The notes below the pieces were generated by a model. It saw nothing but the letters and a program-made list of their open reading frames with translations, was not told where the DNA came from and searched no databases. A DNA stretch of 64,000 bases from Escherichia coli (GTDB lineage Bacteria > Pseudomonadota > Gammaproteobacteria > Enterobacterales > Enterobacteriaceae). Shown here piece after piece: positions 15,208 to 15,261 of this stretch. Each line of letters begins with the position of its first letter. The first letter of the stretch is position 1. The translations under genes and the position numbers were made by a program. Location of the stretch: the NCBI RefSeq assembly GCF_003334785.1, contig NZ_QOWV01000001.1; one strand, 5' to 3'.

Positions 15208-15261
15208 ATATCAGGTGTCAAGAATGGAGAGTTCTCGCTCTCCATTCTTGACGCCTGATAT
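15208..15261. repeat. Long near-perfect inverted repeat (24-bp arms, 6-nt loop) between ymgC and pdeG
   Basis: ATATCAGGTGTCAAGAATGGAGAG ttctcg CTCTCCATTCTTGACGCCTGATAT, one mismatch; followed by a T-rich tract. Confidence 0.5.

What the first reader, a model, noticed from the sequence alone, without database searches (positions are those of the whole stretch)
15208..15261. Long near-perfect inverted repeat (24-bp arms) between ymgC and pdeG
ATATCAGGTGTCAAGAATGGAGAG-ttctcg-CTCTCCATTCTTGACGCCTGATAT has one mismatch, which is much longer than a typical intrinsic terminator stem. It sits 95 bp after ymgC and about 180 bp before pdeG, followed by a T-rich tract. It could be a strong terminator insulating the ycgZ-ymgABC operon from pdeG, a protein-binding palindrome, or part of a small RNA.
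Basis: seen in the sequence. Interest (0 to 1): 0.4.

Follow-up and report, generated by a model that had tools for sequence, protein, structure and literature searches.

The report
Strong lone hairpin between ymgC and pdeG
The 54-base palindrome after ymgC in E. coli K-12 is real and would fold into a very stable RNA hairpin. It lacks the U-tract of a normal terminator, occurs once per genome and only in E. coli, varies a lot between strains, and looks like an ordinary RNA-processing or stabilising hairpin of uncertain importance.

Summary
Observation confirmed. Arms 15208-15231 and 15238-15261 have one T:G mismatch and a 6-nt loop. RNA folding gives -44.5 kcal/mol (z about -10). It is the best inverted repeat in the 64-kb window.

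It is not a canonical intrinsic terminator. The ten bases after the stem are CCCGCCTAAC, the T-run starts 11 nt downstream, and the terminator scan finds nothing.

It is not a repeat-family member, mobile-element end or Rfam RNA. There is one copy per E. coli genome and none in phages, viral contigs or other species' representative genomes.

Within E. coli it is polymorphic. About half of strains carry the near-perfect form. B2-like strains carry a split 8+14-bp version. Diversity in the left arm and loop is 3-5 times that of the flanking coding sequence, and no stem pair shows compensatory double changes.

Best reading (confidence about 0.4): a transcribed intercistronic/3'-UTR hairpin that acts after transcription. 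It would be an RNase III substrate and/or a 3'-exonuclease barrier that uncouples ycgZ-ymgABC mRNA from pdeG. A published rnc-mutant RNA-seq screen lists a putative RNase III-dependent site in this spacer.

Main rival (about 0.3): a young, selectively neutral palindrome in AT-rich, H-NS-bound, E. coli-specific DNA. Interest is low.

The parts
15208..15231 (.). Left arm of the palindrome (ATATCAGGTGTCAAGAATGGAGAG). On the - strand, 15221-15216 reads TTGACA.
   Evidence: This is the most variable part of the locus between E. coli haplotypes (pi 0.14). B2-like alleles carry a 4-nt insertion and extra substitutions here.
15232..15237 (.). Spacer/loop TTCTCG. The RNA fold closes one more U.G pair, giving a 25-bp stem with a 4-nt loop.
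   Evidence: The loop is CGCTCG in B2-like alleles and TTTTCG in one metagenome allele.
15238..15261 (.). Right arm (CTCTCCATTCTTGACGCCTGATAT). It contains TTGACG (15248-15253), which Shimada 2014 predicted to be the -35 of a pdeG promoter.
   Evidence: G15253 pairs with T15216 as the single wobble. Alleles with A here (L002/L040) or with C at 15216 (L066) are perfect palindromes.
15139..15163 (+). HP1: small hairpin CATCAGC-11 nt-GCTGATG, 26 nt after the ymgC stop codon (-10.3 kcal/mol).
   Evidence: It is retained in the divergent ymgC copy of L006/L007, whose homology to K-12 ends at about 15173.
15166..15195 (+). HP2: weak hairpin (GAGCAU/AUGCUU, -8.4 kcal/mol) followed by the U-rich tail UCUUAUUAU. 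It is terminator-like but weak.
   Evidence: It is invariant in the haplotypes that were sampled without reference to it.
15262..15279 (+). Sequence after the stem: CCCGCCTAAC followed by TTATTTTG. The T-run is 11 nt from the stem base. TATTTT (15273-15278) is the -10 predicted by Shimada 2014.
   Evidence: The T-run is not conserved (TTTGTTTAAT in B2-like alleles).
14865..15113 (+). ymgC, the last gene of the ycgZ-ymgA-ariR-ymgC operon. It is an E. coli-only orphan.
   Evidence: PMC3509220 reports a single polycistronic mRNA by northern blot.
15445..16968 (+). pdeG (ycgG), a CSS-motif EAL phosphodiesterase. It is the downstream gene that the hairpin separates from ymgC.
   Evidence: H-NS binds its promoter region in vivo (PMC9546599).
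15363..15363 (+). Position MG1655 1217246, listed as a putative RNase III-dependent site 'intergenic ymgC-ycgG'. [quoted passage not shown]
   Evidence: Gordon 2017, PMC5371410 Table S1. The coordinate offset of 1,201,883 comes. The surrounding 209 nt have no significant structure of their own (z +0.6).

Best explanation
The palindrome is a transcribed RNA element in the ymgC 3'-UTR / ymgC-pdeG spacer. It is not a DNA site and not an intrinsic terminator.

Proposed mechanism:
1. Transcripts from the ycgZ promoter run past the ymgC stop codon. The + strand then folds into a 25-bp hairpin of about -44 kcal/mol.
2. With no adjoining U-tract, the hairpin cannot release RNA polymerase by itself.
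3. It acts after transcription in two ways. It blocks 3'-to-5' exonucleases, so it can define and protect the 3' end of the ycgZ-ymgABC mRNA. At more than two helical turns of nearly perfect duplex, it is also a substrate for RNase III.
4. RNase III cleavage would cut read-through RNA between ymgC and pdeG and expose the downstream pdeG leader to decay. The cold/RpoS/blue-light-induced operon and the H-NS-silenced pdeG would then be expressed independently.

Shown: the structure, its uniqueness, the missing U-tract, its presence in all alleles, and its better pairing on the + strand.
Inferred: that it is transcribed through, that RNase III cuts it, and that this matters for fitness.
For: - Fold: -44.5 kcal/mol, z -10, 25 consecutive pairs. 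It dominates the fold of the whole 3'-UTR.
- Substrate size: E. coli RNase III accommodates about 22 bp of dsRNA, and its cleavage sites are enriched in intergenic regions within transcripts (PMC6212723).
- RNase III dependence: Gordon 2017 lists a putative RNase III-dependent position in exactly this spacer, 102 nt downstream of the stem, with 41 reads in the rnc deletion mutant against 0 and 1 in wild type. The palindrome is the only significant duplex-forming element in the spacer, since the downstream 209 nt fold with z +0.6.
- Against a terminator: no terminator-like site on either strand. ymgC mRNA is not polyadenylated, which fits a 3' end not made by a Rho-independent terminator.
- Upstream transcript: ycgZ-ymgABC is one polycistronic mRNA.
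- Persistence: every natural allele keeps a long hairpin, with + strand energies of -26 to -45 kcal/mol.
- Strand: 94.7% of stem cells pair as + strand RNA. By my count from that table, about 87% would pair on the - strand, because most changes are G-C to G.U.
- Perfecting changes: among the three single-base variants of the K-12-type allele seen here, two are exactly the changes that make the stem perfect, T.G to T-A and T.G to C-G.
- Not coding: a 4-nt indel breaks the only spanning ORF.
Against: - No direct RNA-end data show a 3' end or a cleavage in the hairpin. Adams 2021 Term-seq shows no 3' end in the spacer, though it was done at 37 C where the operon is nearly silent.
- The Gordon site rests on 41 reads, was not tested in vitro, and lies 100 nt away from the stem.
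- There is no covariation support. No pair changes on both sides, and shuffles do as well as the real alignment.
- The palindrome is the most variable segment of the locus, not the most conserved: pi is 0.14 for the left arm and 0.17 for the loop, against 0.026 for the ymgC CDS.
- About half of natural alleles (B2-like) have the stem broken into 8 + 14 bp by an asymmetric internal loop.
- The element exists only in E. coli, so there is no deep conservation.
- RNase III antideterminants could not be scored.
Confidence: 0.4

Rival explanations
1. Neutral by-product. The palindrome arose once, for example by an inverted duplication or template-switch event, when the E. coli-specific ymgC-pdeG junction formed. 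It has no selected function and is slowly decaying in some lineages. In others it is kept or re-perfected by hairpin-templated (quasipalindrome) mutation. Any effect on RNA is incidental.
For: - The locus is restricted to E. coli.
- The region is AT-rich (30-43% GC) and H-NS-bound.
- The palindrome is the most polymorphic stretch of the locus.
- B2-like alleles carry an indel plus several disrupting substitutions.
- There are no compensatory double changes.
- The spacer tolerates IS1, IS10-like and Tn7-like insertions.
- About 8% of complete genomes lack it.
- The two 'perfecting' single-base changes are what template-switch correction of a quasipalindrome predicts. That mechanism is my own knowledge and was not checked in a paper here.
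Against: - The near-perfect form is the majority allele: the exact K-12 64-mer is present in 2891 of the 4957 records with a match.
- All alleles still fold strongly.
- A 25-bp RNA duplex in a transcribed spacer will have physical consequences whether or not it is selected.
- There is a putative RNase III-dependent signal in the spacer.
Confidence: 0.3
2. DNA-level promoter/operator element. The right arm carries the -35 hexamer of the pdeG promoter, and the palindrome is bound by RNA polymerase, H-NS or a dimeric regulator, or it extrudes as a cruciform. In this way it controls pdeG transcription.
For: - Genomic SELEX found RpoD holoenzyme binding in the ymgC-ycgG spacer and flagged H-NS there. 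The authors' predicted promoter TTGACG-19-TATTTT maps to 15248-15253 and 15273-15278.
- The mirror-image left arm reads TTGACA on the - strand.
- H-NS ChIP is positive at the pdeG promoter region.
- Gene-level RNA-seq counts are higher for ycgG than for ymgC, suggesting that pdeG has its own promoter.
- The single-stranded DNA hairpin folds at -25.8 kcal/mol.
Against: - The 19-nt spacer is non-optimal, and the tool's 16-18-nt scan finds no promoter in the spacer.
- The -10 is TGTTTA in B2-like alleles, and the -35 is TTGATG in L009/L013.
- No TSS was found in the Cappable-seq or SMRT-Cappable-seq supplements that could be searched.
- Arms of 24 bp are far longer than known operator half-sites.
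- High sequence variability argues against a sequence-specific binding site.
Confidence: 0.12
3. [quoted passage not shown]
For: - It is a very stable hairpin 95 nt after the last gene of an operon that gives a discrete polycistronic mRNA.
- A T-run lies nearby at 15272-15278.
Against: - The T-run starts 11 nt after the stem base, and the bases directly after the stem are CCCGCCUAAC.
- There are 0 terminator-like sites on either strand.
- ymgC mRNA is not polyadenylated, unlike most mRNAs ending at intrinsic terminators.
- No Term-seq 3' end has been reported here (weak evidence).
- The T-run is not conserved between alleles.
Confidence: 0.08
4. Member or relic of a repeat or mobile family (REP/BIME, ERIC, MITE, abutted IS ends), or an independent small RNA gene.
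For: Its palindromic form and intergenic position resemble such elements.
Against: - There is one locus per genome in 5426 E. coli genomes. The '2 places' per record are the palindrome matching itself on both strands.
- No copy was found in phages, viral contigs or 100,044 species-representative genomes.
- The 14 'plasmid' hits are all E. coli records typed non-mobilizable, 92 kb to 4.9 Mb long. I read these as chromosome pieces filed as plasmids.
- There is no Rfam family, no repeat feature in the MG1655 annotation, and no direct repeat flanking the arms.
Confidence: 0.03

Closest known systems
RNase III processing hairpins in E. coli and phage mRNAs (rpsO-pnp leader, lambda sib retroregulator, T7 R1.1)
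   Same: It is a long intramolecular duplex of about two helical turns in an untranslated or intercistronic region. Cleavage of such hairpins changes the stability of the flanking RNA. A putative rnc-dependent signal has been reported in this spacer.
   Different: No cleavage has been mapped in this hairpin. Its stem is more perfect than most natural sites in K-12, and in B2-like strains it is broken into 8 + 14 bp. It is not conserved outside E. coli.
3'-UTR stabiliser hairpins such as REP/BIME elements (for example malE-malF)
   Same: It is a stable stem-loop without a U-tract, located downstream of a gene, and able to stall 3'-exonucleases and set differential stability within a transcript.
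   Different: It has no similarity to REP as I recall the consensus, which was not tested here. It is a single copy rather than a family of several hundred. The MG1655 record annotates no repeat feature in this spacer.
Intrinsic (Rho-independent) terminators
   Same: It is a hairpin located after the last gene of an operon.
   Different: The stem is 24-25 bp rather than the usual, much shorter length (from my own knowledge, roughly 5-14 bp). It is only 46% G+C, and no U-tract abuts the stem.
Quasipalindrome mutational hot spots (template-switch correction) described in E. coli reporter genes
   Same: It is an imperfect inverted repeat whose observed natural variants include exactly the changes that make it perfect. 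It also shows raised local diversity.
   Different: This is a natural polymorphism, not a reporter assay. The mechanism is inferred from allele patterns only.

Membership tests
Intrinsic (Rho-independent) terminator | Run of U/T directly (0-2 nt) after the 3' side of the stem | tested here: not met
   The stem is followed by CCCGCCTAAC, and the T-run begins at 15272, 11 nt downstream. The scan finds 0 terminator-like sites on either strand in 13600-15700. On the - strand the stem is followed by TGCGGACATAA.
Intrinsic (Rho-independent) terminator | Short G+C-rich stem-loop | tested here: inconclusive
   A stem is present, but it is 24-25 bp long and 46% G+C (24 of 52 stem bases by reading). That is much longer and less G+C-rich than typical.
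Intrinsic (Rho-independent) terminator | Mapped RNA 3' end at the stem base | tested here: inconclusive
   No + strand 3' end appears in the spacer in the Adams 2021 Term-seq tables, but the operon is cold/stationary-phase induced. Other data sets were not held or were cut.
RNase III substrate | About 20-22 bp or more of near-continuous intramolecular dsRNA | tested here: met
   K-12-type alleles have 25 consecutive pairs including one G.U. The 22-bp requirement comes from PMC6212723. B2-like alleles have only 8 + 14 bp split by an internal loop.
RNase III substrate | Favourable base-pair pattern in the proximal/middle/distal boxes (no antideterminants) | not testable with these tools
   The scoring matrix is in a figure and supplementary table of PMC6212723 that are not held.
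RNase III substrate | rnc-dependent cleavage or rnc-dependent RNA abundance in vivo | tested here: inconclusive
   Gordon 2017 Table S1 lists 1217246 (window 15363) as 'intergenic ymgC-ycgG', with 41 reads in the rnc deletion mutant against 0 and 1 in wild type. The count is low, the site was not verified, and it lies 102 nt from the stem.
REP/BIME, ERIC or other intergenic repeat family; MITE | Multiple dispersed copies per genome | tested here: not met
   There is one locus per genome. None was found in phages, viral contigs or other species.
MITE / IS end | Target-site duplication flanking terminal inverted repeats; related copies near transposases | tested here: not met
   The flanks ...GTCCGCA and CCCGCCT... 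are not direct repeats. No related copies exist.
Sigma-70 promoter of pdeG overlapping the right arm | -35 and -10 hexamers at 16-18 nt spacing, conserved between strains, with a mapped TSS | tested here: not met
   The only proposal is TTGACG-19-TATTTT. The scan finds no promoter in the spacer. Both hexamers vary between alleles. No TSS was found in the searchable tables.
Structured RNA under selection (covariation) | Compensatory changes on both sides of stem pairs, in excess of controls | tested here: not met
   Across 11 distinct alleles, 0 pairs change on both sides, and the covariation score of 0.091 compares with a shuffled mean of 0.093. One pair does show the series C-G / U.G / U-A.
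Known RNA family (Rfam) | Match to a covariance model | tested here: not met
   Only chance-level hits appear in 13000-17500 at E up to 10, and none overlaps the palindrome.

The most novel reading that the evidence does not exclude
The hairpin is a strain-variable post-transcriptional switch between two signalling modules. In K-12-like strains the perfect 25-bp stem is cut by RNase III, or blocks exonucleases, so that ycgZ-ymgABC (Rcs activation, biofilm) and pdeG (c-di-GMP degradation) are uncoupled. In B2/ExPEC strains the degenerate 8+14-bp stem, sometimes linked to the truncated ycgG2 allele, lets read-through couple them. The stem is kept perfect in the first group by quasipalindrome template-switch correction, which would make it a natural, segregating example of that mutational process acting on a regulatory RNA.
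Probability: 0.1. Interest if true: 0.45.

Novelty: new member of a known kind. Interest (0 to 1): 0.2.

Why it matters
If the hairpin does act as an RNase III/exonuclease boundary, it would explain two things. It would show how the blue-light/cold-induced ycgZ-ymgABC mRNA gets a discrete 3' end without an intrinsic terminator. It would also show how the adjacent H-NS-silenced c-di-GMP phosphodiesterase gene pdeG is insulated from that operon.

The allele series (perfect, one wobble, split stem) offers a ready-made natural test set. Beyond that it is a local detail of one E. coli-specific locus. It opens no general question.

Tried and rejected
1. Repeat or mobile family: rejected. There is a single copy in the window and one locus per genome in 5426 E. 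coli genomes. Phages and viral contigs gave nothing. All 14 plasmid-collection hits are E. coli records typed non-mobilizable, 92 kb to 4.9 Mb long, which I take to be chromosome pieces.

2. Other species: both genome-contig scans returned nothing. One used YmgC peptides and one the arm pattern. Caveat: the E. coli representative genome did not match either, so these scans only show that the exact 19-of-20-mer and close YmgC relatives are absent from the representative genomes. YmgC homologues are E. coli/Escherichia sp. only. The most divergent ones led to K-12-identical alleles (L099, L102), an engineered strain (L101), error-ridden contigs (L100, L061) or a second ymgC copy without the palindrome (L006/L007). 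No outgroup was obtained, so the ancestral state cannot be polarised.

3. Rfam: no family.

4. Protein-coding: the 50-codon ORF at 15155-15307 spanning the palindrome is broken by the 4-nt indel in B2-like alleles, so this was rejected.

5. Rho utilisation site: there is no C-over-G bubble around the hairpin, so nothing can be concluded.

6. Strand-specific selection: transitions in the arms give G.U on the + strand versus the - strand 5:2. This is not significant and is confounded by a C-to-T bias.

7. Published end-mapping: Adams 2021 has no + strand 3' end here. The Ettwiller 2016 and Yan 2018 TSS tables have nothing. The TRS 2023 files are cut. The Altuvia 2018 and Dar & Sorek 2018 supplements are not held.

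8. Papers not reached: Tschowri 2009, for the northern band size, is not held.

9. [quoted passage not shown] The authors themselves call this binding rather unspecific, and they do not say which hairpin.

Full report
**Where this is.** The window is E. coli K-12. Window coordinate plus 1,201,883 gives the MG1655 (NC_000913.3) coordinate. The finding lies in the 331-nt spacer between ymgC and pdeG. ymgC (14865-15113) is the last gene of the ycgZ-ymgA-ariR-ymgC operon, and the pdeG/ycgG ATG is at 15445.

**Observation.** The palindrome is there as described. The arms are 15208-15231 and 15238-15261, 24 nt each, with a 6-nt spacer and one mismatch, T15216:G15253.
- As RNA, the + strand folds at -44.5 kcal/mol with 25 consecutive pairs.
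- The - strand folds at -45.3 kcal/mol.
- As single-stranded DNA it folds at -25.8 kcal/mol.
- All three have z near -10, and no shuffle does as well.
- It is the only long near-perfect short-loop inverted repeat in 64 kb.
- One correction: the T-rich tract is not adjacent. The stem is followed by CCCGCCTAAC and then TTATTTTG.

**What it is not.**
- Not a canonical intrinsic terminator. The scan finds no terminator-like site on either strand, and the first ten bases after the stem contain one T.
- Not a repeat-family member. There is one locus per genome in 4955 of 5426 complete E. coli genomes (the two 'places' per record are the palindrome matching itself on both strands).
- Not on mobile elements. 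Phages, viral contigs and the representative genomes of 100,044 species gave nothing. Plasmid-collection hits are all E. coli records typed non-mobilizable, 92 kb to 4.9 Mb long, which I read as chromosome fragments.
- No Rfam family matches.
- The MG1655 record annotates no feature in this spacer.
- The only ORF that spans it is destroyed by a 4-nt indel in many strains.

**Context.**
- ymgC is an orphan found only in E. coli. Tschowri 2012 states that ymgC, ycgG and ymgF are absent from other enterobacteria, and that ycgZ-ymgABC gives one polycistronic mRNA on northern blots (PMC3509220).
- The region is AT-rich at 30-43% GC. H-NS binds the pdeG promoter region (PMC9546599; flagged also in PMC3946193).
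- The ymgC 3'-UTR contains two smaller hairpins before the palindrome. HP1 is at 15139-15163 (-10.3 kcal/mol). HP2 is at 15166-15195 (-8.4 kcal/mol) and is followed by UCUUAUUAU.
- A second, divergent ymgC copy in one strain shares homology only up to about 15173. So HP1 travels with ymgC and the palindrome does not.

**Population variation.** I collected alleles from complete genomes, from contigs encoding divergent YmgC, and from 81 metagenome contigs. The metagenome contigs were anchored on the conserved HP2 24-mer, so that sample is unbiased with respect to the palindrome.

Of the 81 metagenome contigs:

| Allele | Contigs |
|---|---|
| K-12 type (one U.G) | 33 |
| K-12 type with a loop change | 1 |
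| Perfect palindrome, U-A at the wobble position | 2 |
| Perfect palindrome, C-G at the wobble position | 1 |
| Hybrid: K-12 left arm with B2-like loop and right arm | 1 |
| L009-type (three further changes) | 1 |
| B2-like | 41 |
| Error-ridden contig (L061), ignored | 1 |

- In B2-like alleles a 4-nt insertion and several substitutions in the left arm, plus CTCTCC to TTTTCC in the right arm, leave an 8-bp and a 14-bp helix separated by an internal loop.
- All alleles still fold strongly on the + strand, at -26 to -45 kcal/mol. The - strand fold is weaker, down to -12 kcal/mol.
- Diversity is highest in the palindrome:

| Segment | pi |
|---|---|
| Left arm | 0.141 |
| Loop | 0.174 |
| Right arm | 0.057 |
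| Next 49 nt | 0.111 |
| ymgC coding sequence | 0.026 |
| Upstream 3'-UTR | 0.051 |

- A formal pair count on 11 distinct alleles gives 94.7% of cells paired, but no pair changed on both sides and no excess over shuffles.
- The structure is therefore retained but not demonstrably selected.
- The one suggestive pattern is this: of the three single-base variants of the K-12-type allele seen in the genome and metagenome samples, two are exactly the two changes that convert the wobble to a Watson-Crick pair. This fits either selection for pairing or hairpin-templated (quasipalindrome) correction.

**Mechanism.** A 25-bp duplex with no U-tract cannot terminate by the intrinsic route. Once transcribed, it will stall 3'-exonucleases, and it meets the size requirement of RNase III, about 22 bp (PMC6212723). 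Three literature results fit this.
- ymgC mRNA was used as a non-polyadenylated control. In that study non-polyadenylated abundant mRNAs almost all lacked Rho-independent terminators (PMC1636475).
- An rnc-mutant RNA-seq screen lists MG1655 position 1217246 (window 15363), 'intergenic ymgC-ycgG', as a putative RNase III-dependent site, with 41 reads in the rnc deletion mutant against 0 and 1 in wild type (PMC5371410). The method keeps sites at least 400 bp apart and picks 'shoulders', so a signal 102 nt downstream is compatible with cleavage in the hairpin. The RNA around 15363 has no significant structure of its own.
- RNase III sites are enriched in intergenic regions within transcripts.

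None of this is direct. The read count is low, and no ends have been mapped in the stem.

**Rivals.**
- The neutral-relic reading is nearly as likely, given the E. coli-only distribution, the high variability and the degenerate B2-like alleles.
- A DNA-level reading comes from genomic SELEX. RpoD holoenzyme binds this spacer, and the authors' predicted pdeG promoter TTGACG-19-TATTTT places the -35 inside the right arm, at 15248-15253. However, the spacing is poor, both hexamers vary between alleles, and I found no mapped TSS.
- The intrinsic-terminator, repeat-family and sRNA readings fail defining tests.

**Verdict.** This is a real and striking structure, but of an ordinary kind: a lone, strain-variable intercistronic hairpin. 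I rate it a new member of a known kind, with interest 0.2. The decisive experiments are simple: end mapping at low temperature with and without rnc, in vitro RNase III cleavage, and allele swaps.

Noticed in passing
window 15322-15402 (+): A 26-codon ORF, MEKILSSAWIFLMLSTMLSVDASASE, lies just upstream of the pdeG start. It is hydrophobic and looks like a signal or leader peptide. It stays open in both K-12-like and B2-like haplotypes (start ATG to TTG, L to V, A to P) but has an L-to-P change in L009. It is not annotated in MG1655. The putative RNase III-dependent position of Gordon 2017 (window 15363) lies inside it. The B2 'ycgG2' deletion begins right after it, at about 15410.
   Followed up: partly
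window 15166-15203 (+): A small hairpin, GAGCAU/AUGCUU, is followed by UCUUAUUAU (HP2). It is invariant in every haplotype sampled without reference to it, so it is better conserved than the large palindrome. It resembles a weak terminator or processing signal and may be the functionally constrained part of the ymgC 3'-UTR.
   Followed up: partly
window 56101-56126: A perfect 26-bp palindrome, AAAATCCACGCAATTGCGTGGATTTT, has an A-run on one side and a T-run on the other. This is the form of a bidirectional intrinsic terminator.
   Followed up: no
L006 116-720 and L007 (E. coli GCA_017278115.1): A second, divergent ymgC copy (82% amino-acid identity) lies next to cybB-gapC-aldA instead of pdeG. 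Homology to K-12 ends about 60 nt after the stop codon, after HP1, and there is no palindrome. This suggests that ymgC has moved as a small module.
   Followed up: partly
L010 (IS1, 16 nt after the palindrome); L017 (IS10-like ISVsa5 at about window 15162); L016 (Tn7-like element replacing everything upstream of about window 15344): In other strains the ymgC-pdeG spacer is repeatedly hit by mobile-element insertions. pdeG itself is often a pseudogene or truncated (internal stop in L003, N-terminal deletion in L004, IS-split in L017).
   Followed up: partly
window 16736-16847 (- strand; MG1655 1218619-1218730): The Adams 2021 Term-seq tables list antisense 3' ends inside pdeG. One of them is in what appears to be the Rho-inhibitor (bicyclomycin) comparison table, whose header I did not read. 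This indicates antisense transcription into pdeG from the ymgF side.
   Followed up: no
window 15216 / 15253 (stem pair 9): Natural alleles show the full series C-G (L066), U.G (K-12, the majority) and U-A (L002, L011, L012, L040), while B2-like alleles have G.G. Both rare K-12-type variants make the palindrome perfect. This is a candidate natural example of quasipalindrome correction.
   Followed up: partly
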